Below, piece after piece: positions 282-39,866 of a stretch of 40,600 bases of DNA. The DNA is from Candidatus Nomurabacteria bacterium RIFCSPLOWO2_01_FULL_41_12 (lineage in GTDB: Bacteria > Patescibacteriota > Minisyncoccia > Phycocordibacterales > UBA9973), in contig MFUY01000002.1 in assembly GCA_001787035.1 (NCBI GenBank), positions 7,355 to 47,954 of the forward strand. Reading direction: 5' to 3'. The stretch's first letter is position 1, and every line of letters starts with the position of its first letter. The notes under the pieces are model-generated. The model did not search any database, was not told the DNA's origin, and saw only the letters and a list, made by a program, of their open reading frames with translations. The position numbers were made by a program, and so were the translations under genes.

Positions 282-674
282 TTAATTTTTGTGAATATCT
301 TCTTCTAAATGGGCTAGTTGCTTTTCCACTCTATTCAAAGTATCTTGGAGGTTTTTAATTTGAGTTTCTTCTGTTGCAACTTCTTCTTCCACTTTTTCAG
401 CCATTTTTTCTTCGCCAATCAAGCCGGAAATAATAAGCCGGCTCCCAATAAAAGCGGAGACAAATACTCCCGTGATAAGAAGTATTATGGTTCCTATAAT
501 TATTGAGGCCACAGAACTGACATTAATATCATCGGCCAAATGCCATATTCCGCGCCAAAATAATATTATTCCAATGCCCCCTATGAGCGCGTAAAGAATA
601 GGGTAGTGGCTTAGTTTACTCCTTACTCTGTCTTCCAACTTATCAAAAAATCGCTTTATCTTTTTCAACTTCAT
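282..674 (-). CDS. hypothetical small membrane protein with acidic coiled-coil-like C-terminus
   Basis: 130-aa ORF with two hydrophobic segments (PILYALIGGIGIILFW, IIIGTIILLITGVFVSAFIG) and an EEKMAEKVEEEV tail. TAA stop. No family recognised. Confidence 0.55.
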   Translation of the reverse strand: MKLKKIKRFFDKLEDRVRSKLSHYPILYALIGGIGIILFWRGIWHLADDINVSSVASIIIGTIILLITGVFVSAFIGSRLIISGLIGEEKMAEKVEEEVATEETQIKNLQDTLNRVEKQLAHLEEDIHKN

Positions 675-753
675 CCCAGTACTAAAATTTTAAATAATAA
701 TGTTTATCCTTATTTCCCGTAATCAAAATTAGGTGAAACCGTTACGGGACAAG
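675..753 (-). repeat. Family A leader element, copy A1 (abuts the ATG of the 282..674 gene)
   Basis: The reverse complement reads ACTTGTCCCGTAACGG...AAAATTTTAGTACTGGG followed by ATG. It shares the 5' box ACTTGTCCCGT and the 3' box AAAATTTTAGTACTGGGATG with copies at 4630, 27776 and 36197. Confidence 0.7.
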
Positions 754-4629: not shown

Positions 4630-4702
4630 ACTTGTCCCGTACTAAATTTTTGATTACGAGGCATAACGATAAACATTAATAATTAAAATTTTAGTACTGG
4701 GA
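4630..4702 (+). repeat. Family A leader element, copy A2 (ends in the nusG ATG)
   Basis: ACTTGTCCCGTACTAAATTTTTGATTACG...AAAATTTTAGTACTGGGA. TCCC 4635-4638 pairs with GGGA 4699-4702, which includes the A of the ATG. Confidence 0.7.
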
Positions 4703-5244
4703 TGAAACAAGAAACAGAGGGGGCAAGAAATTGGTACGCAATACACACTTATGCCGGATATGAAAATGTCGTCTTGCGTAATTTGCGCCAGCGCATTGAC
4801 TCCCTAGGTATGAACGATAAAATTTTCAACGTTATTGTTCCGATTGAAAAAAAGATAAAAATAAAAGGAGGCAAGAGAGTGGAGGTGGAAGAAAAAATTT
4901 ATCCGGGTTATGTTTTGGTTGATATGATTGTGACGGATGATTCTTGGTATGTGGTGAGGAATACTCCGCGGGTCACCGGTTTCGTCGGCGCGGGAGTAAA
5001 CCCGGTGCCTCTTAAAAAAGAAGAAGTGGAGTATCTTTTCAAGAAGATGGATGCCGGCACAACTAAGCACAATATTGACATGGTTATCGGCGAGAGCATT
5101 CTGATTACCGATGGTCCGTTTAAAGAACTGGAAGGGAAAATTAATTCCATTGACCAAGAGCGTGGCAAAGTTAAAGTGCTTGTTTCAATGTTCGGTCGCG
5201 AGACCCCGGTCGAACTAGATTTCTTGCAAGTCAAGAAAATTTAA
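4702..5244 (+). CDS. nusG: transcription termination/antitermination factor NusG
   Basis: 180 aa. WYAIHTYAGYENVV, YPGYVLVDM and a KOW-type C-terminus ITDGPFKELEGKI. Confidence 0.9.
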   Translation: MKQETEGARNWYAIHTYAGYENVVLRNLRQRIDSLGMNDKIFNVIVPIEKKIKIKGGKRVEVEEKIYPGYVLVDMIVTDDSWYVVRNTPRVTGFVGAGVNPVPLKKEEVEYLFKKMDAGTTKHNIDMVIGESILITDGPFKELEGKINSIDQERGKVKVLVSMFGRETPVELDFLQVKKI

Positions 5245-5258
5245 GATAATGTATCAGA

Positions 5259-5302
5259 GTCGCGCTTAAAGGACGGTTGCGCGACATGATTTCGCAAAAT
5301 CA
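5259..5302 (+). repeat. Family B leader hairpin pair, copy B1 (abuts the rplK ATG)
   Basis: GTCGCGC (5259-5265) - 13 nt loop - GCGCGAC (5279-5285), then ATGATTTCGCAAAATCA. Near-identical copy at 31249-31294. Confidence 0.7.
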
Positions 5303-5728
5303 ATGGCTAAAAAAATAACCAAAAAAATAAAACTTCAAATTCAAGCTGCAAAGGCCACTCCGGCGCCGCCCTTGGGGCCTGCGCTCGGCCAAGCCGGCAT
5401 AAATATCGGAGATTTTGTCACCAAGTTCAACGCTGCCACAGCCAAAATGGCCGGGGATAAAGTCGGTGTTTCCATTACTGTTTATGAAGACAGGAGCTAT
5501 GATTTTATTGTGAAAACACCTCCAGTAACCGGGCTTATCTTAAAAGCCGCTGGGGTGGAGAAAGGTTCTGGTAAAAATGTTGCGACAAAAGCGGGTAAAA
5601 TCACTCGCGCACAAGCTTTAGAAATCGCAAATAAAAAAAGAGCGGATTTGAATGCCAAAGATGACGAAGGCGCAATACGCATTATCGCCGGCTCTGCTCG
5701 ATCTATGGGTATTGAAGTAGTGGATTAA
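5303..5728 (+). CDS. rplK: 50S ribosomal protein L11
   Basis: 141 aa. [26 protein letters not shown]. Follows nusG as usual. No rplA follows. Confidence 0.95.
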
Positions 5729-5736
5729 CGAAGCCT

Positions 5737-6462
5737 ATGTTAAGATACTCATATATGTCAAACATTAAACAATATTTTACGCAGAAAAATGTTCTCTTTA
5801 TTGTTATTTTCGCAGTTTTGGGGTTTATCGCTCTGCAAATTCCAGTGGCCCAATTGGAAGGGTCTAAAGTGAAGTTTATGGTCTATGACGCTTTCGCTCC
5901 TGTGGCCGGCGCTTTTATCGGTAGCTTGCCTGGCGTAGTGGCGGTCTTTTTAATGCAATTTGTAAATTTCTTGGTGCACGGAGCAGTTGTGGAAGATGCC
6001 GGAACAATTATTCGTTTTTTGCCGATGCTTTTCGCGGCATTATACTTCGCTCGGAAAGGAAAATCTAATCTAGTCGTTCCAGTACTTGCGATTATCGCTT
6101 TTATTGCTCATCCTATCGGCCAAACGGTTTGGTATTTTGCACTTTTCTGGACCATTCCAATTATTGCCTATTTTTTCCGTGACAGGTTTCTTTTGGCGCG
6201 GGCGCTTGGCGCCACCTTTACCGCCCACGCGGTCGGCGGCGCTTTATGGATCTGGGTTTTCAACCTGCCGGCGCCGGTTTGGGTCTCGCTTATACCGGTT
6301 GTGGCTCTAGAGCGCGGATTTTTTGCTCTTGGAATTGTTATTTCTTTTGTTCTTGTCAACAATCTTTTAGCTTTTCTCGAAAAGAAATATATCTTAAATC
6401 TCGGTTTTACTATTAACCAGGGATATCTCTTGGGCGCATTACGCCATGAATCGAAAGTCTAA
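5737..6462 (+). CDS. multi-pass membrane protein; possible vitamin/folate-type transporter component (context only)
   Basis: 241-aa ORF (alternative ATG at 5755) with about 6 hydrophobic segments. Its stop overlaps the next gene. Any function is inferred only from the adjacent folate genes. Confidence 0.5.
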   Translation: MLRYSYMSNIKQYFTQKNVLFIVIFAVLGFIALQIPVAQLEGSKVKFMVYDAFAPVAGAFIGSLPGVVAVFLMQFVNFLVHGAVVEDAGTIIRFLPMLFAALYFARKGKSNLVVPVLAIIAFIAHPIGQTVWYFALFWTIPIIAYFFRDRFLLARALGATFTAHAVGGALWIWVFNLPAPVWVSLIPVVALERGFFALGIVISFVLVNNLLAFLEKKYILNLGFTINQGYLLGALRHESKV

Positions 6463-6985
6463 GCCGCATAAAGTTATTTACACCGCTTATGTTGCAACTA
6501 GTATTGATGGACGCATAGCAGAGAGTCATCAGTCCGGCATAGACTGGACAAGCAAGGAAGACTGGAATTTTTTTCAGAAATCTCTTAATAAAATGGATGC
6601 CGTCATTGTGGGGCATAATACTTATAAAGTTTCCAAAGATCGCCTCAAACGGAGAAACACCATAGTTTTGACTTCAAAAATCAATAAGTTGAAAACACAA
6701 GACAAAATTGTTTTTTTTAATCCAAAGAACTCCAGCCTAGAAAAATTTCTTAGTAGTAAAGGATATAAAAATATAGCAGTGCTCGGTGGCGGTAAAGTGT
6801 ATGATTTTTGCCTTTCCAATAAAATGCTGGATGAGCTTTTTGTCACGATTGAACCGTATGTTTTCACAAATGGCGTGCCGATGTTCTCCGGGATTAGATT
6901 CAGAAAATATAAATTTTCCTTAGTTACAGTTAAAAGACTTAATAAAACAGGAACCCTTCTCTTAAAATATAAAAATGAAAATTAA
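6446..6985 (+). CDS. RibD C-terminal domain / dihydrofolate-reductase-like reductase family protein
   Basis: 179 aa. VATSIDGRIA, DAVIVGHNTY, VLGGGKVY, DELFVTIEPYVFTNG. Confidence 0.7.
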   Translation: MNRKSKPHKVIYTAYVATSIDGRIAESHQSGIDWTSKEDWNFFQKSLNKMDAVIVGHNTYKVSKDRLKRRNTIVLTSKINKLKTQDKIVFFNPKNSSLEKFLSSKGYKNIAVLGGGKVYDFCLSNKMLDELFVTIEPYVFTNGVPMFSGIRFRKYKFSLVTVKRLNKTGTLLLKYKNEN

Positions 6986-7736
6986 AACTATAAAAACCAG
7001 AATATTTCGCGAAAACGAAAACCTAATGGAGTTTATTTTAAAGTATCTCAAAAAAATTCCCAAAAAAAATCTTGAGCAATCTATCCTGGTTATAACCTCC
7101 AAGATAGTGGCTCTCTCCGAAGGGAGAACTAAAGAAATTGATAAATCAATTTCTCACGACAAAATGCGGGAAAAGATTATTAAAGCTGAAAGCGAATATA
7201 TGCTGCGGACTAAATACACCTGGCTGACCATCAAAGACGGGATGGTCATGGCTTCAGCCGGCATTGATGAATCCAATGCGGACAACAAGATAGTTTTATT
7301 ACCAAAAGATTCTTTCCAGGCCGCCCATTTAATTCGCAAGAAGTTAGTTAAAGAATATAAAGTAAAAAACTTAGGTATTCTAATTACGGACAGCAGGCTA
7401 CTGCCTCTGCGCGCAGGCATCGTCGGAGCCGCTGTCGGTTATGCTGGGTTTAAAGGTGTGCGAGATTATCGCGGAACTCCGGATATCTTCAGGAGAATTT
7501 TAAAATTATCCCGGACTGATGTGGCTGACGGCTTGGCTACCGCAGCCGTACTTTGCATGGGAGAAGGCAAAGAGCGGCAACCACTCGCCTTGATTACTAA
7601 CGCTCCGGTTGAATTCGTGGAAAAAGTCAACAAAAAAGAGCTCTACATCGACCCGCGCGAAGATTTGTATCAGCCTCTTTTTGCCAGGATAAAAAAAATA
7701 AAAAATATAAAATCAAAGAATTATTACAGGTTTTAA
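6975..7736 (+). CDS. CofE/FbiB-like gamma-glutamyl ligase (putative folate-metabolism gamma-glutamate ligase)
   Basis: 253 aa. ITSKIVALSEGR, ASAGIDESNA, ILITDSRLLPLRAGIVGAAVGYAGF. Confidence 0.7.
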   Translation: MKIKTIKTRIFRENENLMEFILKYLKKIPKKNLEQSILVITSKIVALSEGRTKEIDKSISHDKMREKIIKAESEYMLRTKYTWLTIKDGMVMASAGIDESNADNKIVLLPKDSFQAAHLIRKKLVKEYKVKNLGILITDSRLLPLRAGIVGAAVGYAGFKGVRDYRGTPDIFRRILKLSRTDVADGLATAAVLCMGEGKERQPLALITNAPVEFVEKVNKKELYIDPREDLYQPLFARIKKIKNIKSKNYYRF

Positions 7737-23787: not shown

Positions 23788-24057
23788 ATGACAAAAATAA
23801 TTAAAAACCCAAGAGTGACCGAAAAAGCCTCATTTGCGCAAGAGCAAAATGTTTACTCTTTTGATGTTGTTTCAGGGGCGAATAAGACAGAAATAAAAAA
23901 GGCTATTTTTGCGCTCTATAAAGTGCATCCGGTAAAAGTGAATGTTTTACCTATACCAAGGAAAAATATTATGTCCAAAGGACGTTTGGGAGTCAAAGGC
24001 GGAGGCCGAAAGGCGTTGGTGTATTTAAAGGTAGGTGATAAAATAGAATTTATTTAA
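23788..24057 (+). CDS. rplW: 50S ribosomal protein L23
   Basis: 89 aa. PRVTEKASFAQEQNVYSFDV, NKTEIKKAI. Confidence 0.9.
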   Translation: MTKIIKNPRVTEKASFAQEQNVYSFDVVSGANKTEIKKAIFALYKVHPVKVNVLPIPRKNIMSKGRLGVKGGGRKALVYLKVGDKIEFI

Positions 24058-24058
24058 A

Positions 24059-24898
24059 ATGAAAAGCTACAAACCGACAAGTAAATCAAGACGTCAGATG
24101 ACTAATGTATCATACAGGGGTGTTTTGACAGCGACCGCTCCCACTAAGTCTTTGACTTATGGTTTCAAGAGATCAGTAGGGCGTAACAGCCAAGGCAGGA
24201 TTACCATGAGACATAAAGGCGGAGGGCATAAGCGTCTTTTCCGGGATGTTGACTTTGTTTATAATAAAAAAGAAATTCCCGCGAAGATTAAATCTGTGGA
24301 ATACGACCCGAACCGTTCGGCCTTCATTGGCTTAGCTGTCTATAAAGATGGAGAAAAAAGATATGTCGTATTGCCGAAAGGAGTAAAAATGGGGGATTCT
24401 TTTATCGTATCCGAAAAGGCGCCCCTCTCGGCGGGAAATCGTTTGCCACTTCGTAATATTCCGGTTGGAACTTTTGTTTACAATATTGAAATCAAACCTA
24501 GGGGCGGTGCTAAGATCGGTCGCTCAGCGGGAATTTTTGCCCAAGTGGTGGCGAATGCCGACGGATATACGAACATCAAAATGCCTTCAACGGAAATCAG
24601 AAAAATAAATGAAGAGTGTTGGGCCTCTATAGGCGCGGTTTCAAACGAAGAGCATCATCTGGAGAATTACGGTAAAGCGGGGCGTAGCCGTTGGAAAGGA
24701 ATACGCCCGACGGTTCGCGGCACAGCAATGAACCCAGTAGACCATCCATACGGAGGCGGAGAGGGCAGACAAGGGCGCGGAACCAAACGCCCGAAAACAA
24801 TGTGGGGCAAGGTTACCGGCGGGCGCAAAACCCGCGGTCCGAAGAAATACTCAAATGTGTTTATCGTGTCTAGGCGCAAGACTGGGAAGAATAAATAA
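24059..24898 (+). CDS. rplB: 50S ribosomal protein L2
   Basis: 279 aa. RHKGGGHKR, GTAMNPVDHPYGGGEG. Confidence 0.95.
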   Translation: MKSYKPTSKSRRQMTNVSYRGVLTATAPTKSLTYGFKRSVGRNSQGRITMRHKGGGHKRLFRDVDFVYNKKEIPAKIKSVEYDPNRSAFIGLAVYKDGEKRYVVLPKGVKMGDSFIVSEKAPLSAGNRLPLRNIPVGTFVYNIEIKPRGGAKIGRSAGIFAQVVANADGYTNIKMPSTEIRKINEECWASIGAVSNEEHHLENYGKAGRSRWKGIRPTVRGTAMNPVDHPYGGGEGRQGRGTKRPKTMWGKVTGGRKTRGPKKYSNVFIVSRRKTGKNK

Positions 24899-27775: not shown

Positions 27776-27847
27776 ACTTGTCCCGTTGCAAATTCAACGA
27801 ATGGGACATAAAGGATAAAAATTATTAATTAAAATTTGCAACTGGGA
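27776..27847 (+). repeat. Family A leader element, copy A3 (ends in the rplN ATG; classical S10|spc boundary)
   Basis: ACTTGTCCCGTTGCAAATT...AATTTGCAACTGGGA. GTTGCAAATT 27785-27794 pairs perfectly with AATTTGCAAC 27833-27842, and TCCC pairs with GGGA 27844-27847. It carries three compensatory pair changes relative to A2 and A4. Confidence 0.75.
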
Positions 27848-28218
27848 TGATACAAAACGAAAGTTTAGTTAAAATAACAGATAACGCTGGAGGCACCGTG
27901 GGTAAAGTGTTCAAGATTTTAGGCTCTTCAAAAAAAAGATACGCGACTTTGGGCGAATTGGTTATTATTTCTGTGAAAGTAGCTTCTCCACGAAAAGGGG
28001 TAAAGAAGAAAGACGTGCATCAGGCAGTCGTCGTACGCACCAGAAGCGCCTACAGAAGGAAGGATGGATCTTATATTCGTTTTGACGATAATGCTGTAGT
28101 GCTCTTGGAAAAAGGCAAGCTTGACCCGAAAGCCGGGCGCGTCTTCGGTCCGATACCGAGAGAGCTTGCTGAAAAGGGATTTCAAAAAATAATTTCGCTG
28201 GCGCAGGAAGTAATTTAA
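27847..28218 (+). CDS. rplN: 50S ribosomal protein L14
   Basis: 123 aa. MIQNESLVKITDNAGG. Confidence 0.95.
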   Translation: MIQNESLVKITDNAGGTVGKVFKILGSSKKRYATLGELVIISVKVASPRKGVKKKDVHQAVVVRTRSAYRRKDGSYIRFDDNAVVLLEKGKLDPKAGRVFGPIPRELAEKGFQKIISLAQEVI

Positions 28219-28464: not shown

Positions 28465-29049
28465 ATGAAACATTTAACCGTAAAAGAAAAAGAAGTGCAA
28501 GCCTTTGAGAAAATGAAAAACTCTACTGTGGCGTTAAGCTCGGAGTTTCATTATAAAAATGCCATGGCTTCGCCGAAGATGGAGAAGATTGTTTTGAACA
28601 CAGGCACTGGGACAGCCATCAAGAAAGATAAAAATAAAAATGATGCTATCGGAGAACGTTTAGCCAAAATTACCGGGCAGAGGCCGGTTCTAAAAGGCGC
28701 CAAGCAGTCCATTGCGTCTTTTAAAGTCCGCCAGGGCGACCCTATCGGCATCGTTGTGACATTGAGGGGCAAGAGGATGTATGCTTTCCTAGAAAAACTT
28801 ATAAATGTCGCCATCCCCCGCACCAAAGATTTCCGTGGTATTGCCCGCACGGCAGTGGATACTATCGGCAACCTCACCATTGGCATCAAAGAACACACTA
28901 TTTTTCCGGAAACAGCTGATGAAGATATCCGCGACGTTTTCGGCATGTCTATTACTCTGGTTTCCACAGCTAAAAATAAAAAAGAAGGTACAGCTTTCTT
29001 TGAACTCCTGGGTGTCCCTTTCAAGAAGGAAGAAGAGAAAAAGAAATAA
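28465..29049 (+). CDS. rplE: 50S ribosomal protein L5
   Basis: 194 aa. PKMEKIVLNTGTG, ITGQRPV, FRGI, GIKEHTIFPE. Confidence 0.95.
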   Translation: MKHLTVKEKEVQAFEKMKNSTVALSSEFHYKNAMASPKMEKIVLNTGTGTAIKKDKNKNDAIGERLAKITGQRPVLKGAKQSIASFKVRQGDPIGIVVTLRGKRMYAFLEKLINVAIPRTKDFRGIARTAVDTIGNLTIGIKEHTIFPETADEDIRDVFGMSITLVSTAKNKKEGTAFFELLGVPFKKEEEKKK

Positions 29050-29121
29050 ACCCGAACACTTATATGTATAACGCAACTTCGTTGCGCACTTTTGGCGCAT
29101 TATGCAAATAAGTGTGTGGGT
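29050..29121 (+). other. long-loop hairpin abutting the rplE stop
   Basis: ACCCGAACACTTAT (29050-29063) pairs with ATAAGTGTGTGGGT (29108-29121), 12 of 14 complementary. Internal CGCAAC-TTC-GTTGCG. The arms resemble the 3766-3794 terminator hairpin. Confidence 0.5.
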
Positions 29122-29194
29122 AAAGTTATCCACAGTTTTTATTGATATATGAATATATAGGTCTACTATTAAGGATGGAGTCTGTACATCAGTG

Positions 29195-29550
29195 TGAGTA
29201 GATTCCCGTGCACTGCCCACGTATCGGCAGAAGAAAGCAAAGAGGATCCTCACATGACGAATCGTCTGGCGCCCAACTGGGCGCAGATCAGCGGCAAGCA
29301 GATCTTCTTCAAGCATCCGTTCGGCGTCGGCAACACCAACAAGGAGGCGCAGGGCGGCACGTAGGCGAAGAAGCCAAGCGCGCCGCGGCATCAGGGGTTT
29401 CATCGCAAGGTGAGTAGGTCTTCGGGACCATGGCTCACTAGGGACGGGAAGGGACGGCGCACACAACATCGTGCTCCTTCCCCCCGTCCTTCTCTATTTC
29501 TACCTTGACTATTCCGCGCTTATTTGCTAGGCTCAAGGGGCCTAGCAATA
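29195..29550 (+). other. GC-rich insert 2 between rplE and rpsN: leader, SD plus 36-codon ORF, and hairpin-rich 3' part
   Basis: 146 of 240 nt are G+C in 29221-29460. Possible promoter TTGATA-16-TACTAT at 29142-29169. Hairpins at 29410-29438, 29441-29489 (GGGACGGGAAGGG / CCTTCCCCCCGTCC, then TTCTCTATTTCT) and 29524-29548 (TTGCTAGGC-TCAAGGG-GCCTAGCAA). 8-nt direct repeat GTGAGTAG at 29194 and 29410. Confidence 0.55.
29254..29364 (+). CDS. candidate 36-aa small protein MTNRLAPNWAQISGKQIFFKHPFGVGNTNKEAQGGT (no family recognised)
   Basis: ATG preceded by AAAGAGGA, whose GGA ends 7 nt upstream. 33 of 36 codons end in G or C, unlike the A/T-ending usage of neighbouring genes. TAG stop at 29362-29364. 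Too short for the ORF track. Confidence 0.4.
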   Translation: MTNRLAPNWAQISGKQIFFKHPFGVGNTNKEAQGGT

Positions 29551-29589
29551 GATCGATCTGTATTTCTCCTTAAGGTCTTTAGTAGTTTT

Positions 29590-29618
29590 TTGAAGAACTT
29601 TAAGAAAAAATATACGAT
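29590..29618 (+). promoter_or_regulatory. possible promoter re-initiating at rpsN
   Basis: TTGAAG (29590-29595), 17-nt spacer, TACGAT (29613-29618). Weak call. Confidence 0.3.
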
Positions 29619-29662
29619 ATCATCTATAAAAATAGGCGATATTTACTAGTTAATTTTTTTTG

Positions 29663-29848
29663 ATGGCAAAAACATCAGTAAAAGCGAGAGCTTCAAAGAA
29701 ACCCAAATTCAGCACCCGGGCCAAGAACCGATGTTTTCGCTGTGGCCGAGGCAATGCTTTTATGAGAGATTTCGGCATTTGCCGTATTTGTTTCAGAGAG
29801 TTGGCAAATGAAGGAATGTTACCGGGTGTTCGTAAATCAAGCTGGTAG
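29663..29848 (+). CDS. rpsN: 30S ribosomal protein S14, zinc-binding type Z
   Basis: 61 aa from the ATG at 29663. CFRCGR...CRICFRE double CxxC, C-terminal LPGVRKSSW. Confidence 0.95.
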
Positions 29849-29852
29849 TTAA

Positions 29853-29890
29853 CAGGTGTTGGACACCCGAATTCGGGTGTCCAACACCTG
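29853..29890. repeat. Family C hairpin, copy C1: perfect 38-nt palindrome (rpsN-rpsH spacer)
   Basis: CAGGTGTTGGACACCCGAA|TTCGGGTGTCCAACACCTG. Followed by the tandem CACCTGAAG x2. No U-tract. Confidence 0.8.
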
Positions 29891-30835: not shown

Positions 30836-30888
30836 ATACAGGTGTTAAATACAGGTGTTGGACACCCGGGTTCAGGTGTCCAACACCT
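30834..30888. repeat. Family C hairpin, copy C2 (rplF-rplR spacer) with tandem 13-mer
   Basis: AAATACAGGTGTT x2, then AGGTGTTGGACACC (30853-30866) pairing with GGTGTCCAACACCT (30875-30888). Same arms as C1. Confidence 0.8.
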
Positions 30889-31248: not shown

Positions 31249-31294
31249 GTCGCGCTTTAATGGACGATTGCGCGACATGATTTCGTAAAATCAT
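31249..31294 (+). repeat. Family B leader hairpin pair, copy B2 (abuts the rpsE ATG)
   Basis: GTCGCGC (31249-31255) - 14 nt loop - GCGCGAC (31270-31276), then ATGATTTCGTAAAATCAT. Confidence 0.7.
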
Positions 31295-31885
31295 ATGGAA
31301 AAGACAAAAGAAAAAAAGAATAATAATCGCAGAGGATCCTCTTTCGGACGAGCAAAGCCGGAGTTTGACCAGAAGATTTTAAATATTCGCCGCGTGACCA
31401 GGGTTGTCGCTGGCGGACGCCGGTTTTCCTTTAGCGTCGCTTTGGTGGCCGGGGATAAAAAGGGGTCTGTTGGTTTAGGCTTGGGAAAAGCGGGAGATAC
31501 GGCACTCGCGATAAATAAAGCAGTACGCAATGCCAAGAAAAATATGATAAGGTTAAAGTTGACAAAGACAATGTCTATTCCCCACGAGCTTTCTGCTAAG
31601 TTTTCAAGCTCACGAATTATTCTTTTGCCGAACAAGGGTCGCGGGCTGGTAGCTGGCTCGGTTATTCGCGATATAATAAAACTCTCCGGGATGAAGGATA
31701 TTACTGGGAAAATCGTGTCTAATAGCAAGAATAAATTAAACAATGCCAAAGCAGTCATGGAGGCTCTCTCTGTTATTTCTTCAAAATATGCAAAACCAGT
31801 AGTGGAAAACATTACCATAGTCCCGGTAGAAGTTCCTATCCCCGCAACATTTATTAAAGATGTAAAAGAGGAACCCCAGCAGTAG
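31295..31885 (+). CDS. rpsE: 30S ribosomal protein S5
   Basis: 196 aa. INRVTKVV-like RRVTRVVAGGRRFSFSVALVAGD, GLGLGKAGD. Confidence 0.95.
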   Translation: MEKTKEKKNNNRRGSSFGRAKPEFDQKILNIRRVTRVVAGGRRFSFSVALVAGDKKGSVGLGLGKAGDTALAINKAVRNAKKNMIRLKLTKTMSIPHELSAKFSSSRIILLPNKGRGLVAGSVIRDIIKLSGMKDITGKIVSNSKNKLNNAKAVMEALSVISSKYAKPVVENITIVPVEVPIPATFIKDVKEEPQQ

Positions 31886-36196: not shown

Positions 36197-36270
36197 ACTT
36201 GTCCCGTACTAAATTTTTGATTAAGATAAATGACCACTCTTAGTAACAATTTAAAATTTTAGTACTGGGA
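36197..36270 (+). repeat. Family A leader element, copy A4 (ends in the map ATG)
   Basis: ACTTGTCCCGTACTAAATTTTTGATTAAG...AAAATTTTAGTACTGGGA. Both boxes are identical to copy A2. Confidence 0.7.
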
Positions 36271-37052
36271 TGATAATTATTAAAACACCAGAAGAAATAG
36301 AAATACTGCGAAAAGGGGGCAGGCATCTGGCGGCTGTGCTTCATAAAGTAAAAGAGAAAATAAAACCAGGAATTTCCACGAAAGATTTGGATGATTATGC
36401 ATTTAAGTTAATTAATGAAATGGGCGACTCTCCCGCATTTTTGAATTATCGTCCAGCCGGCGCGAAAGTTCCTTTTCCTGCAAGTCTTTGTGTGTCTGTC
36501 AATGATGAAGTAGTGCACGGCATTCCAAACAAGGAAAGAATATTAAAAGAGGGTGACATTGTCGCGCTTGATTTAGGACTTAAGCATAAAGGGCTTTTTA
36601 CCGACATGGCATTTACGGTACCAGTAGGGAAAGTGAGTTCTAGCGCTCTTAAATTAATGGAGGTGACAGAGAAGGCACTGCAAGTGGGCATCAATGCGGC
36701 GCAAGCCGGCAATACGGTAGGGGACATCGGCCATGCCGTTGAGAGTTTTGTGCGTGCCCAAAAAAACAGCCAGCAGTACGGTATTGTAGAAGTTCTCTCG
36801 GGGCACGGAGTCGGACGCGCAATACATGAAGACCCCTATATACCCAACTTTGGGAAAAAAGGGAAAGGAGAAAAGTTAGTTCCGGGCATGGTCATTGCGC
36901 TCGAGCCGATGATAAATAACGGCACAAAAAATGTGACTTTGGACGATGACGGCTACACTTTCCGCACAGCTGACAGCAAAAACAGCGCGCATTTTGAGCA
37001 TACAATTTTGATTACCGAAAATGGGCCGGAAATTTTGACCAAAACTTTTTAA
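36270..37052 (+). CDS. map: type I methionine aminopeptidase
   Basis: 260 aa. VVHGIP, DIVALDLG, FTDMAFT, GHGVGRAIHE, ALEPM, FEHTILIT. Confidence 0.95.
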   Translation: MIIIKTPEEIEILRKGGRHLAAVLHKVKEKIKPGISTKDLDDYAFKLINEMGDSPAFLNYRPAGAKVPFPASLCVSVNDEVVHGIPNKERILKEGDIVALDLGLKHKGLFTDMAFTVPVGKVSSSALKLMEVTEKALQVGINAAQAGNTVGDIGHAVESFVRAQKNSQQYGIVEVLSGHGVGRAIHEDPYIPNFGKKGKGEKLVPGMVIALEPMINNGTKNVTLDDDGYTFRTADSKNSAHFEHTILITENGPEILTKTF

Positions 37053-37094
37053 AAAAATTTTAGCTTTTGTTTGTTTTGTTATATACTTATATCC

Positions 37095-39866
37095 ATGGAA
37101 CAGCCATTTTTTAAGGAAATGCCGAAGTTTAAGACTCCAGAAGAGGAGCTTGATTATTTGCGTGCTCATGTGGCTCGTCGCGAAGAGGAGCTTATTAAGA
37201 TTGGGCATATTGAACATGCGGGAGACAATGCGGCGCGGGACGTGGTGGGAGCATATAAGGAAGTGCCCGCGGAGGAGATATTGCACGAAAGTCATCTTTT
37301 AAATAAAAAGGAAACGGAAGGCATAGTTTTGGCGCTTAAGCCGGAATCCCACGATAATACAATGGAAGAACTTTTAGGTATTGTCATAACCAAAGGAGTT
37401 AAAAATGCGCTCTCGGTGGTAGAGGCTATGAATAACCCGCATATTGAAGATGATTTCCATAGGATTTTAATTCAGTACTTAAAAGCAGGCCAAGCGAACA
37501 TCCCCTTCAAAGAAGGTACTCCCATGCACAAGTCTCTCAATATGACGCTCTTTGAGATAACTCTTCCACCGCCCACCGATGAGGCTGATAAATCAAAGGG
37601 TTTCAAGGAATTTATCGGAGCGATGGAGCAGTTTTATGCCGGCATGCAATCCATTTCTTCGGATAAAAAAAATACAAAAGAAATTTATTTCACATTAGAA
37701 GTGGCTCTTGGTAATCAAAATGATGAGGTGGTTGTCTATGCGGGAGTTCCCAATAAGCATATTTCTCTTTTTGAGAAACAGATTTTGGCATTTTATCATA
37801 ATGCGAAAATCCGCGAGGTGACGGATGATTATAATATTTTTAATATGGACGGAGGGTCCACCGGAGCTTATGCGGTGCTCTCCGAGCGCGGAGTAATGCC
37901 AATCAAGACTTATGACAATATCGAGCATGATCCAATGAATACGATTCTCAATGTATTTTCCAAACTGCAGACTAAGGGTGAGGGCGCAGCGATCCAGCTC
38001 GTGGTAGCGCCCGCCGGCGAAAAATTTATCAATGAATTTCACATGATCTTGGATGATGTGAAAGACGGTATGTCTGTCAAACATGCGGCGGATAATTTTT
38101 ATAAATTTAACCGCGCATTTTTAGACGCAGGCAAGGAATTAATTTTTGGCAAAAAGAAAAAGGAGCCGGAGGGAAAAAATCCTGAAAAATACATGAAAGG
38201 CAGACGCGCGGTGGATGAAGGAGCAGCGGAAAAAATAGGCAATAAAATAAAAAGTAGTATTATGAAAGCCAATATCCGTGTTATTACATCAGGCGCGACG
38301 AAAGAGCGCGCAGAGGCTATTCTAAAAGAAATAGAATCTTCTTTCAACCAATTTTCCGAAGCGGCCAGCAACTCTTTTGTCTTTGAAGAAGCTCACGGAA
38401 GCTCTCTGAAGCAGCTTTTTCATGATTTTTCTTATCGTGCTTTTTCAACTGACAGGATTATACCGCTTAATTTAAAGGAGCTTGCTTCAGTCTTTCACTT
38501 TCCGGTCGGCATCGGCAGTCAGCCACAGTTGAAGGAGGCTAAAGCCGGTATTGCTCCAGCACCACTTGAGATGGGGCAAGAGGGGATAATCTTAGGAGTA
38601 AATAGTTACCGGGGCAAAGATACTGAAATCCACATGGCGCGTGAAGACCGCATGAGGCATTTCTATGTGATAGGTCAGACGGGAACAGGCAAAACAAATA
38701 TCATGCTCAATATGATTACGCAGGATATAATCTCCGGCGACGGTTGTTGTTATATAGACCCTCACGGCACTGATATACAGACCATCTTATCCCGTATTCC
38801 AAAAGAACGTATTGATGACGTTATTTATTTTGATCCAGCCTACACATCTCGCCCAATGGGGTTAAACATGCTTGAGTATGACACTAAATATCCGGAGCAG
38901 AAAACTTTCGTGGTAAACGAGATGATGGGAATTTTTAATAAACTTTTTGATATGAAAGTGGGAGGCGGGGCGATGTTTGAACAATACTTCAGGAATAGCG
39001 CATTTCTGGTGATGGAAGATCCGGAGTCCGGCTCCACCTTGCTTGAGATTACCAGGGTCTTGGGCGACAAAGAATTTCGAGACATGAAACTTGCCAAGTG
39101 TAAGAACCCTATCATTAAACAATTTTGGGTTTCTGCCGAGCAGACGACGGGGGATCAGTCTCTAGCGAACTTCGTGCCATATATTTCTTCTAAATTTGAT
39201 AATTTTATCAGCAACGACATTATGCGTCCGGTAGTGCTCCAGCAGAATTCTGTCTTTAACTTCCGAAAGATTATGGACGAGAAGAAAATTCTCTTGGTCA
39301 ATCTTTCCAAGGGCCGGCTGGGAGATATCAACGCGAACTTAATCGGTCTCGTCTTGGTGGGTAAAATCCAAATGGCGGCGCTTTCCCGAGTGGATATGTT
39401 TGGCAAGCCGATGAATGATTTTTATCTTTACATTGATGAGTTTCAAAATGTCACTACCGACTCCATCGCTTCTATTTTATCAGAGGCTAGAAAATACAGA
39501 TTATCGCTCAACATCGCGCATCAATACATCACTCAATTGGAGGAGAATATTAAAAATGCTGTCTTTGGAAATGTCGGATCAATGGCGGTCTTTCGCGTCG
39601 GCACTGAAGACGCGACATTTCTTGAACCAAAATTTAAAGAAAAATTTACAGCGCATGATATTACAAAACTAGATAATTACAATGCCTATGTGAGCATGCT
39701 TGTAAAAGGCCAGCCAACTAAACCTTTTAATCTGCATACTTTGGCTCCGGAGAAAGGCAATCCTGACATTGTGGATAGTCTAAAAGAACTTTCTTATGTC
39801 AAATACGGCCGCGACCGAGAAGAAGTGGAAGCTGAAATCATGGCGAGGTATACGTCTATGGAATAA
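37095..39866 (+). CDS. large soluble P-loop NTPase of the TraD/VirD4/VirB4-HerA (T4SS-type) superfamily with an unassigned ~500-aa N-terminal region
   Basis: 923 aa from the ATG at 37095. Walker A GQTGTGKT (38673-38696). Walker B-like FYLYIDEFQN (about 39420-39449). YIDPHG, ARKYRLSLNIAHQY. No TM segment seen. Confidence 0.6.
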   Translation: MEQPFFKEMPKFKTPEEELDYLRAHVARREEELIKIGHIEHAGDNAARDVVGAYKEVPAEEILHESHLLNKKETEGIVLALKPESHDNTMEELLGIVITKGVKNALSVVEAMNNPHIEDDFHRILIQYLKAGQANIPFKEGTPMHKSLNMTLFEITLPPPTDEADKSKGFKEFIGAMEQFYAGMQSISSDKKNTKEIYFTLEVALGNQNDEVVVYAGVPNKHISLFEKQILAFYHNAKIREVTDDYNIFNMDGGSTGAYAVLSERGVMPIKTYDNIEHDPMNTILNVFSKLQTKGEGAAIQLVVAPAGEKFINEFHMILDDVKDGMSVKHAADNFYKFNRAFLDAGKELIFGKKKKEPEGKNPEKYMKGRRAVDEGAAEKIGNKIKSSIMKANIRVITSGATKERAEAILKEIESSFNQFSEAASNSFVFEEAHGSSLKQLFHDFSYRAFSTDRIIPLNLKELASVFHFPVGIGSQPQLKEAKAGIAPAPLEMGQEGIILGVNSYRGKDTEIHMAREDRMRHFYVIGQTGTGKTNIMLNMITQDIISGDGCCYIDPHGTDIQTILSRIPKERIDDVIYFDPAYTSRPMGLNMLEYDTKYPEQKTFVVNEMMGIFNKLFDMKVGGGAMFEQYFRNSAFLVMEDPESGSTLLEITRVLGDKEFRDMKLAKCKNPIIKQFWVSAEQTTGDQSLANFVPYISSKFDNFISNDIMRPVVLQQNSVFNFRKIMDEKKILLVNLSKGRLGDINANLIGLVLVGKIQMAALSRVDMFGKPMNDFYLYIDEFQNVTTDSIASILSEARKYRLSLNIAHQYITQLEENIKNAVFGNVGSMAVFRVGTEDATFLEPKFKEKFTAHDITKLDNYNAYVSMLVKGQPTKPFNLHTLAPEKGNPDIVDSLKELSYVKYGRDREEVEAEIMARYTSME

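What the first reader, a model, noticed from the sequence alone, without database searches (positions are those of the whole stretch)
29254..29364. 36-codon ORF with a strong SD and extreme GC3 codon usage foreign to the host
ATG ACG AAT CGT CTG GCG CCC AAC TGG GCG CAG ATC AGC GGC AAG ... GGC GGC ACG TAG. 33 of 36 codons end in G or C. The surrounding r-protein genes prefer A/T-ending codons, and the other frames of the island lack this skew. AAAGAGGA lies 7 nt upstream of the ATG. Third-position skew that is much stronger than the local G+C (61%) is the signature of a real coding frame that evolved in a high-GC background (inference). The peptide MTNRLAPNWAQISGKQIFFKHPFGVGNTNKEAQGGT is soluble and Gly/Asn/Lys-rich. 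I do not recognise it. An internal palindrome GCGCCCA-AC-TGGGCGC (29269-84) could alternatively be an RNA or DNA structural element.
Basis: partly seen in the sequence, partly recalled or inferred. Interest (0 to 1): 0.65.

Follow-up and report, generated by a model that had tools for sequence, protein, structure and literature searches.

The report
Foreign-looking mini-gene between rplE and rpsN
The 36-codon ORF is real and sits in a small self-contained unit (promoter, ribosome-binding site, short GC-rich ORF, terminator) inserted into the ribosomal-protein operon of three related Nomurabacteria (candidate phyla radiation, CPR) species, but its peptide is not conserved, so it is an orphan mini-gene rather than a new conserved small protein.

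Summary
ORF 29254-29364 has 33 of 36 sense codons ending in G/C, against host GC3 of 0.39-0.51. It is the most extreme such stretch in the 40.6 kb window, and AAAGAGGA lies 7 nt upstream of the ATG. It lies in a 455-nt insert (29050-29504) between rplE (L5) and the conserved promoter and leader of S14. That junction is a cargo hotspot in Nomurabacteria: the spacer ranges from 136 to 3756 nt across 64 relatives, and one close relative has an empty site. Two sister species carry a homologous cassette at the same place. The sigma-70-like promoter, a strong SD and the intrinsic terminator (one compensatory pair) are conserved. The ORF between them is not: it is 36, 55 or 21 codons long and the peptides are almost unalignable. 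The window's TAG falls 6 codons before the sister's stop. All three ORFs keep G/C at third positions more than neutral drift predicts (p about 1e-4). No homolog turned up in any protein, Pfam, PHROG, NCBIfam, Rfam, plasmid or phage search. Best reading: a horizontally acquired, moron-like mini-gene that is probably translated, whose expression signals and codon composition are maintained but whose peptide sequence is not. A decaying gene remnant is the main rival. Interest is moderate to low.

The parts
29050..29121 (+). Window-specific 72-nt imperfect hairpin directly after the rplE stop codon. It is part of the insert but absent from the sister species.
   Evidence: Inverted repeat I1. Folds at -29 kcal/mol with z = -3.8. 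The 75-nt gap in L091/L095 in alignment A1 shows it is absent there.
29115..29144 (+). Terminator-like hairpin plus T-run (TGTGGGTAAAGTTATCCACA GTTTTTATTG). It may terminate the rplE transcript. Its 3' arm (AAGTTATYCACA) is conserved in the sister species.
   Evidence: Consensus scan and alignment A1.
29142..29169 (+). Cassette promoter: -35 TTGATA, 16-nt spacer, -10 TACTAT.
   Evidence: Consensus scan. The same architecture is present in L091 (TTGACT-16-TAGCAT) and L098 (TTGACT-16-TATGCT). Identity to L091 is 74%.
29176..29238 (+). Predicted 5' UTR with a hairpin at 29213-29230 (CUGCC...GGCAG).
   Evidence: Folds. L091 has CUGGC...GCCAG at the equivalent place, read directly from alignment A1, which is a both-sides change.
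29239..29253 (+). Shine-Dalgarno AAAGAGGA (29239-29246) overlapping a 10-nt perfect palindrome GAGGATCCTC (29242-29251), followed by a 7-nt spacer to the ATG.
   Evidence: The 13-nt block GAGGATCCTCACA is identical in L091-L095. Anti-SD duplex energies are -6.1, -9.5 and -11.8 kcal/mol in the three species, against a host typical value near -1.
29254..29364 (+). The reported ORF: 36 codons plus TAG, GC3 0.92, peptide MTNRLAPNWAQISGKQIFFKHPFGVGNTNKEAQGGT.
   Evidence: The database holds it as protein P0001, with no relatives.
29365..29379 (+). In-frame continuation (AKKPS) that still carries the GC3 signal. It is homologous to the last codons (ANKPN*) of the sister ORF, so the window's TAG is premature relative to the sister.
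29409..29439 (+). Hairpin GGUGAGU-AGGUC(UUCG)GGACC-...GCUCACU with a stable tetraloop.
   Evidence: Conserved in L098, where changes are confined to the loop (UUCG-type becomes GCAA). All 15 predicted pairs are kept. It is replaced by a different hairpin in L091.
29441..29501 (+). Intrinsic terminator: a 19-pair G+C-rich hairpin followed by UUCUCUAUUUCU.
   Evidence: 97% identical to L091. The three-species consensus fold has one compensatory A-U to G-C pair. The U-rich tail is on the + strand only.
29505..29662 (+). Ancestral rpsZ (S14) promoter (TTGACT 29505-29510, 17-nt spacer, TAGGCT 29528-29533) and conserved leader. This is the right-hand border of the insert and is not part of the cassette.
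   Evidence: It aligns with the roughly 140-nt spacers of relatives that lack an insert and with the empty site in L097. Identity to L091 is 87%.

Best explanation
The ORF belongs to a self-contained mini-gene cassette about 385 nt long. The whole insert, 29050-29504, is 455 nt and includes a window-specific hairpin. The cassette sits in the gap between the end of the rplE transcript and the separate promoter of rpsZ (S14). In Nomurabacteria that gap repeatedly accepts foreign cargo.

The cassette carries its own sigma-70-type promoter, a structured 5' UTR and a strong Shine-Dalgarno site, which is rare in this genome. It also carries a short ORF written almost entirely in G/C-ending codons, one or two stable hairpins and an intrinsic terminator. 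It would therefore make a highly structured RNA of about 330 nt that is translated into a short hydrophilic peptide.

What is shown: the architecture; its conservation in three species; the hypervariability of the peptide; and the excess retention of G/C at third positions.

What is inferred:
- The cassette entered by horizontal transfer from a higher-GC, SD-using source. It is 'moron'-like in the phage sense (an added promoter-gene-terminator unit).
- It is transcribed and translated.
- Selection acts on expression, on an open frame and on codon or RNA composition, not on a particular peptide sequence. The product would then be a fast-evolving disordered micropeptide, or the act of translating and stabilising the RNA is what matters.
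For: Location and insert borders:
- rplE ends at 29049 and rpsZ starts at 29663.
- Only 29505-29662 aligns with the roughly 140-nt spacers of relatives.
- L097, with L5 93% identical, has an empty site: TAA, 3 nt, then TTGACT.

Hotspot:
- The spacer ranges from 136 to 3756 nt across the 64 of 80 related species representatives in which both genes were found. Cargo is varied and often elevated in GC, and each of the three examined (L033, L015, L079) starts with a TTGAC promoter.

Three homologous cassettes at the same site:
- The window, L091-L095/L100 (L5 91% identical; includes Ca. Nomurabacteria RIFCSPHIGHO2_01_FULL_40_12) and L098/L099 (L5 89% identical).

Conserved signals:
- Promoter -35/16 nt/-10 in all three.
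- Strong SD in all three (-6.1, -9.5 and -11.8 kcal/mol), while only 3 of 50 host starts reach -5.8.
- Terminator 97% identical to L091, with a compensatory pair.
- A tetraloop hairpin that varies only in its loop.

ORF properties:
- The period-3 GC signal is continuous from the ATG to the stop in each species.
- The net length differences between the orthologous start and end are multiples of three (39 and 102 nt; read).
- Third positions are G/C at 107 of 120 codons. The neutral one-branch retention estimated from 605 four-fold sites is 0.75, giving p = 8.5e-5.

Independent assemblies carry the spacer at 100% identity, which rules out a chimera.
Against: - The peptide is not conserved. Lengths are 36, 55 and 21 aa, the best BLASTP E-value is 0.025, and two pairs give no alignment.
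- The window has a stop 6 codons before the sister's stop.
- ORF-region DNA alignments are barely better than codon-shuffled controls (z = 4.3, 2.4 and 1.5).
- No donor or homolog was found anywhere.
- There are no expression data.
- There is no within-species variation to test selection.
- The L098 5' UTR carries period-3 GC in a different frame, which looks like a frameshifted remnant.
- With only three species, the frame-preservation argument is weak (about 1 in 9 by chance).
Confidence: 0.5

Rival explanations
1. Decaying remnant. The cassette is what is left of a larger foreign cargo gene. Its promoter, SD, first codons, last codons and terminator survive. Different internal deletions in each lineage produced the 21-, 36- and 55-codon leftovers, and the period-3 GC pattern is a fossil.
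For: - Only the N-terminal codons (TNRxAP, window vs L098) and the C-terminal codons (TN..G.T.A.KP, window vs L091) are alignable. The middle is not.
- The window has a premature TAG.
- There is a phase-shifted period-3 signal in the L098 5' UTR.
- The same hotspot holds full-size GC-rich cargo genes in relatives.
- One close relative has lost or never had the cassette.
Against: - Third-position G/C is retained above the neutral expectation, even assuming an ancestor with 100% GC3 (p = 0.01, 0.003 and, combined, 8.5e-5).
- The promoter, strong SD and terminator are kept in all three species at a four-fold-site divergence of 0.5-0.8 substitutions per site.
- There is no phase shift inside any of the three ORFs.
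- No full-length relative was found among about 100 loci or in the protein databases.
Confidence: 0.27
2. A structured small RNA is the functional product. The G+C richness serves RNA stability in an AT-rich genome, and the ORF is incidental.
For: - The spacer RNA folds far better than shuffles (z = -8.0).
- All three predicted transcripts fold at -132 to -137 kcal/mol, with about 60-66% of ORF bases paired.
- There is a conserved terminator and a tetraloop hairpin with UUCG-type/GNRA loop exchange.
- The peptide is unconstrained.
Against: - A pure RNA constraint does not predict a strict period-3 pattern confined to the ATG-to-stop interval.
- It does not predict a strong SD at the right spacing in all three species of a genome that rarely uses SD.
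- The internal hairpins of the ORF, such as 29269-29284, are not conserved.
- No Rfam family matches any of the three copies.
Confidence: 0.12
3. Leader-peptide attenuator. Translation of a leader made of host-rare G/C-ending codons controls the downstream terminator, and so controls read-through into rpsZ-rpsH-rplF...secY.
For: - The order ORF-hairpin-terminator lies immediately upstream of the S14 operon.
- The codons are rare in the host.
- The pattern 'translation matters, peptide does not' fits.
Against: - The stop codon is 77 nt (window) and 47 nt (L091) from the terminator stem, which is too far for a terminating ribosome to affect it.
- I did not see an alternative antiterminator pairing in the MFE folds.
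- S14 has its own conserved promoter downstream of the terminator in all relatives, including those with no cassette.
Confidence: 0.05
4. DGR relic. The ORF is an orphan variable region or template repeat of a diversity-generating retroelement (DGR). That would explain the hypervariability, the A-free third positions and the many AAN codons.
For: - Bona fide DGRs occupy this same hotspot in L033 and L015. Their VR-TR mismatches are 20 of 22 and 15 of 15 at template adenines, with an RT gene downstream.
- Their target genes are also GC3-rich (0.70-0.72).
- The window ORF has 8 of 36 AAN codons and no A at third positions.
- A G+C-rich tetraloop hairpin follows the ORF.
Against: - There is no RT, Avd or second repeat copy anywhere in the 40.6 kb.
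- There is no similarity to the L033 or L015 elements.
- There is no intra-population variation across 10 and 5 contigs.
- Species differ by indels and at non-adenine sites.
- The ORF is far too short for a known DGR target fold.
Confidence: 0.04
5. A scrap of a recognisable gene: either an inverted 3' end of a ribosomal protein S8 gene, or a single cell-wall-binding (choline-binding/CROP) repeat from a GC-rich Gram-positive organism.
For: - The antisense frame reads LLVLPTPNG..., like S8 LLVLSTPKG, and has the same length to the stop (E = 5e-4 for one pair).
- Residues 4-26 weakly resemble GW..I.GK.YYF repeats (PDB E = 0.16).
Against: - There is no Pfam hit to Ribosomal_S8 or CW_binding, even at E <= 10.
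- The large-database hits are to three unrelated repeat families (Ig-like, FG-GAP, choline-binding). Their E-values come from summing 5-7 weak repeat matches.
- Neither resemblance is present at the homologous positions of the sister ORFs.
Confidence: 0.02

Closest known systems
Phage 'morons' (autonomous promoter-gene-terminator units with atypical base composition inserted between conserved genes; from my own knowledge of the phage genomics literature, not checked here)
   Same: It has its own sigma-70-type promoter and factor-independent terminator. It is inserted between two genes of a conserved array without disrupting them. Its composition differs sharply from the flanks. Its presence among close relatives is patchy, with a clean empty site.
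   Different: The host replicon is a cellular ribosomal-protein operon of a CPR bacterium, not a prophage. The cargo ORF is only 21-55 codons long and is not conserved. No phage homolog exists.
Leader peptides / upstream ORFs of attenuators (trp and his leaders, erm leaders)
   Same: It is a short ORF with a good ribosome-binding site, followed by hairpins and a terminator upstream of an operon. The peptide sequence is largely irrelevant.
   Different: The stop codon is 47-77 nt from the terminator. No antiterminator alternative was found. The downstream operon has its own promoter after the terminator.
Dual-function sRNAs encoding micropeptides (RNAIII/hld, SgrS/SgrT, SR1/SR1P; from my own knowledge)
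   Same: It is a structured RNA of a few hundred nt, transcribed on its own, with an embedded small ORF.
   Different: In those cases the peptide or a base-pairing region is conserved. Here neither a conserved peptide nor a conserved single-stranded seed was found. There is no Rfam match.
DGR variable regions (present in the same hotspot in L033 and L015)
   Same: It is a hypervariable coding stretch with A-poor, G/C-rich third positions between conserved flanks, with a G+C-rich hairpin downstream.
   Different: There is no template repeat, no reverse transcriptase, no adenine-specific mismatch pattern and no population variation.

Membership tests
Moron-like autonomous cargo unit | Own promoter upstream and intrinsic terminator downstream of the cargo ORF | tested here: met
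   TTGATA-16-TACTAT at 29142-29169, conserved in three species. A 19-pair hairpin plus U-rich tail at 29441-29501 with one compensatory pair. These are sequence predictions only, with no transcript data.
Moron-like autonomous cargo unit | Base composition distinct from the flanking genes | tested here: met
   G+C is 0.605 against 0.41. GC3 is 0.92 against 0.39-0.51. The codon score lies below all 268 host chunks.
Moron-like autonomous cargo unit | Presence or absence among close relatives, with an intact empty site | tested here: met
   L097 (L5 93% identical) has TAA, 3 nt, then the S14 promoter. The window, L091 and L098 carry the cassette.
Moron-like autonomous cargo unit | Resides in a phage or prophage genome | tested here: not met
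   The context is the S10-spc ribosomal-protein operon of a Nomurabacteria chromosome. There are no phage hits.
Conserved small protein gene | Homologous copies keep the peptide sequence and length (purifying selection) | tested here: not met
   Lengths are 36, 55 and 21 aa. The best BLASTP E-value is 0.025 and there is no alignment for two pairs. The stop is premature relative to the sister.
Conserved small protein gene | Open frame with start, ribosome-binding site and coding periodicity in every copy | tested here: met
   ATG plus a strong SD in all three copies. The period-3 GC signal is continuous from ATG to stop.
Diversity-generating retroelement (variable or template repeat) | A second near-identical repeat copy whose mismatches lie at adenines of one copy | tested here: not met
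   There is no repeat of the ORF in the window. The positive control works in L033 and L015.
Diversity-generating retroelement (variable or template repeat) | Reverse transcriptase gene nearby | tested here: not met
   No RT was found among the 20 non-ribosomal ORFs of the window scanned with Pfam. The rest of the genome could not be searched.
Leader-peptide transcription attenuator | Leader stop codon close enough to alternative terminator/antiterminator hairpins for the ribosome to choose between them | tested here: not met
   The stop-to-terminator distance is 77 nt in the window and 47 nt in L091. I did not see a competing antiterminator in the MFE folds.
Cell-wall-binding / choline-binding repeat (PF01473, PF19127) | Significant match to the repeat profile | tested here: not met
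   There is no Pfam hit at E <= 10. Only summed multi-repeat hits and a PDB E-value of 0.16 were seen.
Ribosomal protein S8 (PF00410), inverted fragment | Significant match of the antisense translation to the S8 profile | tested here: not met
   There is no Pfam hit. The 17-residue BLASTP match is not reproduced at the homologous positions of the sister ORFs.
Any curated RNA family (Rfam 15) | Covariance-model hit at or near the gathering score | tested here: not met
   The best hits have E of about 1, to eukaryotic miRNA models, in all three species.

The most novel reading that the evidence does not exclude
The cassette is a dedicated expression site: conserved promoter, ribosome-binding site and terminator. 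Its short translated interior is turned over unusually fast or replaced, while being held to G/C-ending, stop-free codons. That would make it a previously undescribed hypervariable micropeptide locus, or a translation-sensing RNA, in CPR bacteria, sitting in a ribosomal-operon hotspot that also hosts DGRs.
Probability: 0.12. Interest if true: 0.65.

Novelty: new member of a known kind. Interest (0 to 1): 0.35.

Why it matters
On its own this is a lineage-restricted orphan mini-gene, so it does not add a new conserved protein or RNA family.

It is useful for three reasons:
- It is a clean example of foreign, SD-bearing, GC-rich DNA becoming an independent transcription unit inside the most conserved operon of an ultra-small CPR genome that otherwise hardly uses SD sequences.
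- It exposed the rplE|rpsZ junction of Nomurabacteria as a cargo hotspot that holds pilin-like genes, ATPases and complete DGRs. This matters for anyone using this operon as a phylogenetic marker block, or studying how CPR genomes acquire genes.
- Three lineages keep promoter, SD, terminator and G/C-ending codons while the peptide itself drifts freely. That unexplained pattern could be tested with metatranscriptomes from the Rifle-type groundwater samples in which this organism is abundant.

Tried and rejected
- Rfam on the window and on all three cassettes found nothing. ARAGORN found no tmRNA.
- Protein homology gave no true relative:
  - The word-indexed search of 5.8 billion proteins, using the 56-aa GTG-extended ORF, returned only the ORF itself.
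  - The same search with the sister 55-aa peptide returned nothing.
  - The full HMMER scan of 1.84 billion representatives returned the ORF itself plus five repeat proteins from three unrelated families. Their E-values come from summing 5-7 weak stretches, so I rejected them as homologs.
- Pfam, PHROGs, NCBIfam and PDB gave nothing significant.
- DNA searches against plasmids and phages gave nothing below E = 0.3.
- Back-translated peptide scans of viral and metagenome contigs found no relative.
- A terminator-hairpin pattern scan of the metagenome collection returned the sister species plus two chance hits inside GC-rich genes (L101, L102). The viral scan returned none.
- The inverted S8 fragment idea was rejected.
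- The assembly chimera or contamination idea was rejected, because ten contigs from ten different assemblies carry the spacer at 100% identity.
- The DGR relic idea has no supporting component in the window.
- I looked for terminal inverted or direct repeats that might mark a transposable element and found none convincing. The repeated TTGACT at both borders is better explained as two -35 boxes.
- Population variation for a dN/dS test was not available. The window species shows none across the spacer and the sister species none within the cassette, and the only differences in L094 lie in the last 17 nt of a contig end.
- Extra L5 relatives (L096, L103, L105) carry other cargo. L104 (89% identical) shows a cassette-like promoter, but the contig ends after 60 nt.
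- Two literature searches found nothing on this locus.
Full report
**1. The observation**

Window 29254-29364 (+) reads ATG ... TAG and encodes MTNRLAPNWAQISGKQIFFKHPFGVGNTNKEAQGGT.
- 33 of 36 sense codons end in G/C. GC by codon position is 0.49/0.43/0.92, and no other frame of the island shows this.
- Twelve host genes have GC3 of 0.39-0.51.
- The ten highest-GC3 111-nt windows of the whole 40.6 kb all lie on this ORF.
- Only 4 of 20000 shuffles of the island reach 34 of 37.
- A codon-adaptation score built from 46 host genes puts the ORF at 0.58. That is below the minimum (0.64) of 268 host 37-codon chunks.
- AAAGAGGA sits at 29239-29246, 7 nt from the ATG.
- The 16-nt palindrome at 29269-29284 is there and folds.

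- The period-3 signal continues about 6-8 codons beyond the TAG.
- The antisense frame that shares third positions is equally open. The ORF alone therefore does not fix the strand. The promoter, SD and terminator do.

**2. Where it is**

The window is a Candidatus Nomurabacteria (Paceibacterota, CPR) chromosome segment carrying the S10-spc ribosomal-protein operon.
- The ORF lies in a 613-nt spacer between rplE (L5, ends 29049) and the zinc-type rpsZ/rpsN (S14, starts 29663).
- Ten contigs from ten different metagenome assemblies carry the spacer at 100% identity (eight cover all 613 nt), so it is not a chimera.
- Only the last roughly 160 nt (29505-29662) align with the roughly 140-nt spacers of relatives. 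This stretch holds a conserved TTGACT-17-TAGTAT-type promoter and a strongly conserved S14 leader.
- Everything from 29050 to 29504 is therefore an insert.
- L097, whose L5 is 93% identical, shows the clean empty site: TAA, three bases, then TTGACT.

**3. The junction is a cargo hotspot**

The L5-S14 spacer could be measured in 64 of 80 related species representatives, and it ranges from 136 to 3756 nt.
- The larger spacers hold co-oriented cargo: pilin-like N_methyl proteins, an AAA ATPase, TruB-like proteins and an acidic 150-aa protein.
- In L033 and L015 the cargo is a complete diversity-generating retroelement. Variable-template mismatches are 20 of 22 and 15 of 15 at template adenines, with an RT gene downstream.
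- Several cargos are G+C-enriched relative to their hosts. Each of the three examined (L033, L015, L079) begins with its own TTGAC promoter, and the L079 cargo ends in a terminator.
- The finding is the smallest cargo unit of this kind.

**4. Homologous cassettes**

Two sister species carry a homologous unit at the same place.
- The first is L091-L095/L100 (L5 91% identical). It includes GCA_001785295.1, Ca. Nomurabacteria RIFCSPHIGHO2_01_FULL_40_12.
- The second is L098/L099 (L5 89% identical).
- L104 (89% identical) shows the same promoter, but its contig ends.

Conserved features:
- A -35/16 nt/-10 promoter: TTGATA...TACTAT, TTGACT...TAGCAT and TTGACT...TATGCT.
- A 5' UTR hairpin with a both-sides change between the window and L091 (CUGCC/GGCAG vs CUGGC/GCCAG).
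- A strong SD in each species. The window and L091 share GAGGATCCTCACA, and L098 has AAGGAG.
- The terminator hairpin plus U-rich tail. It is 97% identical between the window and L091. In L098 one A-U pair has become G-C.
- A second hairpin shared by the window and L098, which differs only in its loop (UUCG-type vs GCAA).

SD strength stands out. The three duplex energies are -6.1, -9.5 and -11.8 kcal/mol, and only 3 of 50 host start sites reach -5.8.

The predicted transcripts (283-357 nt) fold at -132 to -137 kcal/mol. The spacer as a whole has z = -8.0 against shuffles.

**5. The ORF itself is not conserved**

- The sister ORFs are 55 codons (MRTHTLTALNIFASPANLTPATPATPDAIIAAGIIEIPEPTNANGTGVTAANKPN) and 21 codons (MRATTNRGAPATRVAKGTKRT).
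- The ATG is orthologous in all three species. The TAG and the following CCGAGA are orthologous in L091 and L098.
- The window's TAG aligns with GCG in L091. Its frame then continues AKKPS, matching ANKPN*.
- Net length differences between the orthologous ends are 39 and 102 nt, both multiples of three.
- Only a few N-terminal codons align (TNRxAP, window vs L098, with three G<->C synonymous changes), and about 14 C-terminal codons (window vs L091, 7 of 14 identical, E = 0.025).
- The other peptide pairs give no alignment.
- DNA alignments of the ORF region beat codon shuffles only weakly (z = 4.3, 2.4 and 1.5).
- There is no evidence of purifying selection on a peptide.

**6. The codon composition is nonetheless maintained**

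- Four-fold sites in 12 shared ribosomal genes (605 sites) are only 51% identical between the window and L091. Their G+C is 0.53.
- From these sites, the probability that a G/C site is still G/C after one branch is 0.75.
- Even if the ancestor had 100% GC3, the observed 38 of 42, 51 of 56 and 18 of 22 (107 of 120 in total) exceed this expectation (p = 0.01, 0.003 and 0.34; combined 8.5e-5).
- Three explanations remain. G/C-ending codons are selected. The interiors are younger than the species split. Or they evolved elsewhere. I cannot decide between these.

**7. No relatives elsewhere**

- The 36-aa peptide is on record once (P0001, two contigs). Most gene callers missed it.
- The exhaustive HMMER scan gave five further hits. 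All are repeat proteins (Ig-like, choline-binding, FG-GAP) whose scores are sums of 5-7 weak stretches. Three unrelated families cannot all be homologs, and none recurs in the sister ORFs.
- Pfam, PHROGs, NCBIfam, PDB, plasmid, phage, viral-contig and metagenome scans were negative.
- A resemblance of the antisense frame to the S8 C-terminus has no profile support and is not reproduced in the sister copies.
- No Rfam family matches.
- No RT or second repeat copy exists in the window.

**8. Interpretation**

Shown:
- An autonomous-looking promoter-SD-ORF-terminator unit of atypical composition.
- It is inserted at a permissive, recurrently used junction.
- It is kept in three species and absent from a fourth.

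Inferred:
- It was acquired horizontally from an SD-using, higher-GC source.
- It is transcribed and translated.
- Selection maintains expression and composition rather than the peptide.

I put this at about 0.5. The main rival, at about 0.27, is that it is the eroded stump of a larger foreign cargo gene. That rival explains the alignable ends, the premature stop and the phase-shifted signal in the L098 5' UTR. It does not explain the retained GC3 or the retained signals. A pure sRNA, a leader attenuator, a DGR relic and a scrap of a known gene are less likely, for the reasons given under each.

**9. Novelty and interest**

The architecture is that of a phage 'moron' transplanted into a cellular ribosomal operon. 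The ORF is an orphan. This is a new member of a known kind (a horizontally acquired orphan mini-gene), not a new conserved small protein. The hotspot, its DGR cargo and the composition-without-sequence conservation are the more interesting by-products. Overall interest is 0.35.

Noticed in passing
L011-L090 (L5-S14 spacers); window 29050-29662: The rplE|rpsZ junction is an insertion hotspot in Nomurabacteria. The spacer ranges from 136 to 3756 nt across 64 species representatives. Cargo is diverse and co-oriented: pilin-like N_methyl proteins, an AAA ATPase, TruB-like proteins and an acidic 150-aa protein. In the three inserts I read (L033, L015, L079) the cargo starts with its own promoter, and L079's ends in a terminator.
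   Followed up: partly
L033:4698-7245 and L015:4745-7247: Complete diversity-generating retroelements sit in that same hotspot. Each has a target gene with a C-terminal variable repeat (L033 5238-5368), a template repeat 461 nt downstream (5699-5829) and an RT gene (6229-7245). Mismatches are 20 of 22 and 15 of 15 at template adenines. The target genes are GC3-rich (about 0.7) in about 0.37-0.41 G+C genomes.
   Followed up: partly
window 4632-4705, 27778-27850, 36199-36273 (+) and 670-728 (-): A repeated leader hairpin of about 75 nt lies upstream of nusG, rplN and two other genes. Its 3' arm ends in ...GUACUGGGAUGA, so the start codon is buried in the stem. The rplN copy has compensatory changes (GUUGCAAA/UUUGCAAC instead of GUACUAAA/UUUAGUAC). 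For the three + strand copies z = -3.3 to -5.6; the fold of the reversed copy (670-728) is no better than shuffles (z = -0.4). This is a candidate translational control element in a genome that mostly lacks SD sequences.
   Followed up: partly
window 29854-29890 and 30852-30888: Two copies of a near-perfect 37-nt palindrome (AGGTGTTGGACACCCGAATTCGGGTGTCCAACACCT; -35 kcal/mol, z = -9) lie in the S14|S8 and L6|L18 spacers. They look like REP-like elements or strong hairpins inside the operon.
   Followed up: no
window, 50 gene starts: Host genes almost never have a Shine-Dalgarno sequence. Only 3 of 50 starts have an anti-SD duplex energy of -5.8 kcal/mol or stronger, and a typical start is near -1. 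This lineage seems to initiate translation mostly without SD.
   Followed up: partly
window 29534-29662: The S14 5' leader is far more conserved than four-fold sites. It is 87% identical to a species whose four-fold sites are 51% identical, and it has invariant blocks such as TTTAAGAAAAAATATACGATATCATCTATAAAAATAGGCGAT. It is a candidate ribosomal-protein autoregulatory leader that matches no Rfam family.
   Followed up: no
window 29050-29121: A 72-nt imperfect hairpin lies directly after the rplE stop. It is present only in the window species and absent from both sister cassettes. It could be a secondary small insertion or a MITE-like element. There is no second copy in the window.
   Followed up: partly
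window 5266-5326 and 31257-31317: A 61-nt motif, 79% identical between its two copies (TTAAnGGACGnTTGCGCGACATGATTTCGyAAAATCA...), lies immediately upstream of two gene starts, at 5303 and at rpsE 31295. Its function was not examined.
   Followed up: no
window 24000-24700 vs L003: One otherwise identical metagenome contig differs from the window by 140 mismatches, all but one confined to about 700 nt in the L23/L2 region. This suggests a local recombination tract between strains.
   Followed up: no
window 37071-39866: A 931-aa ORF just downstream of the operon has weak TraG/TraD-type coupling-protein domains (TraG-D_C, TrwB_AAD_bind). This hints at a type IV secretion or DNA-uptake ATPase.
   Followed up: no
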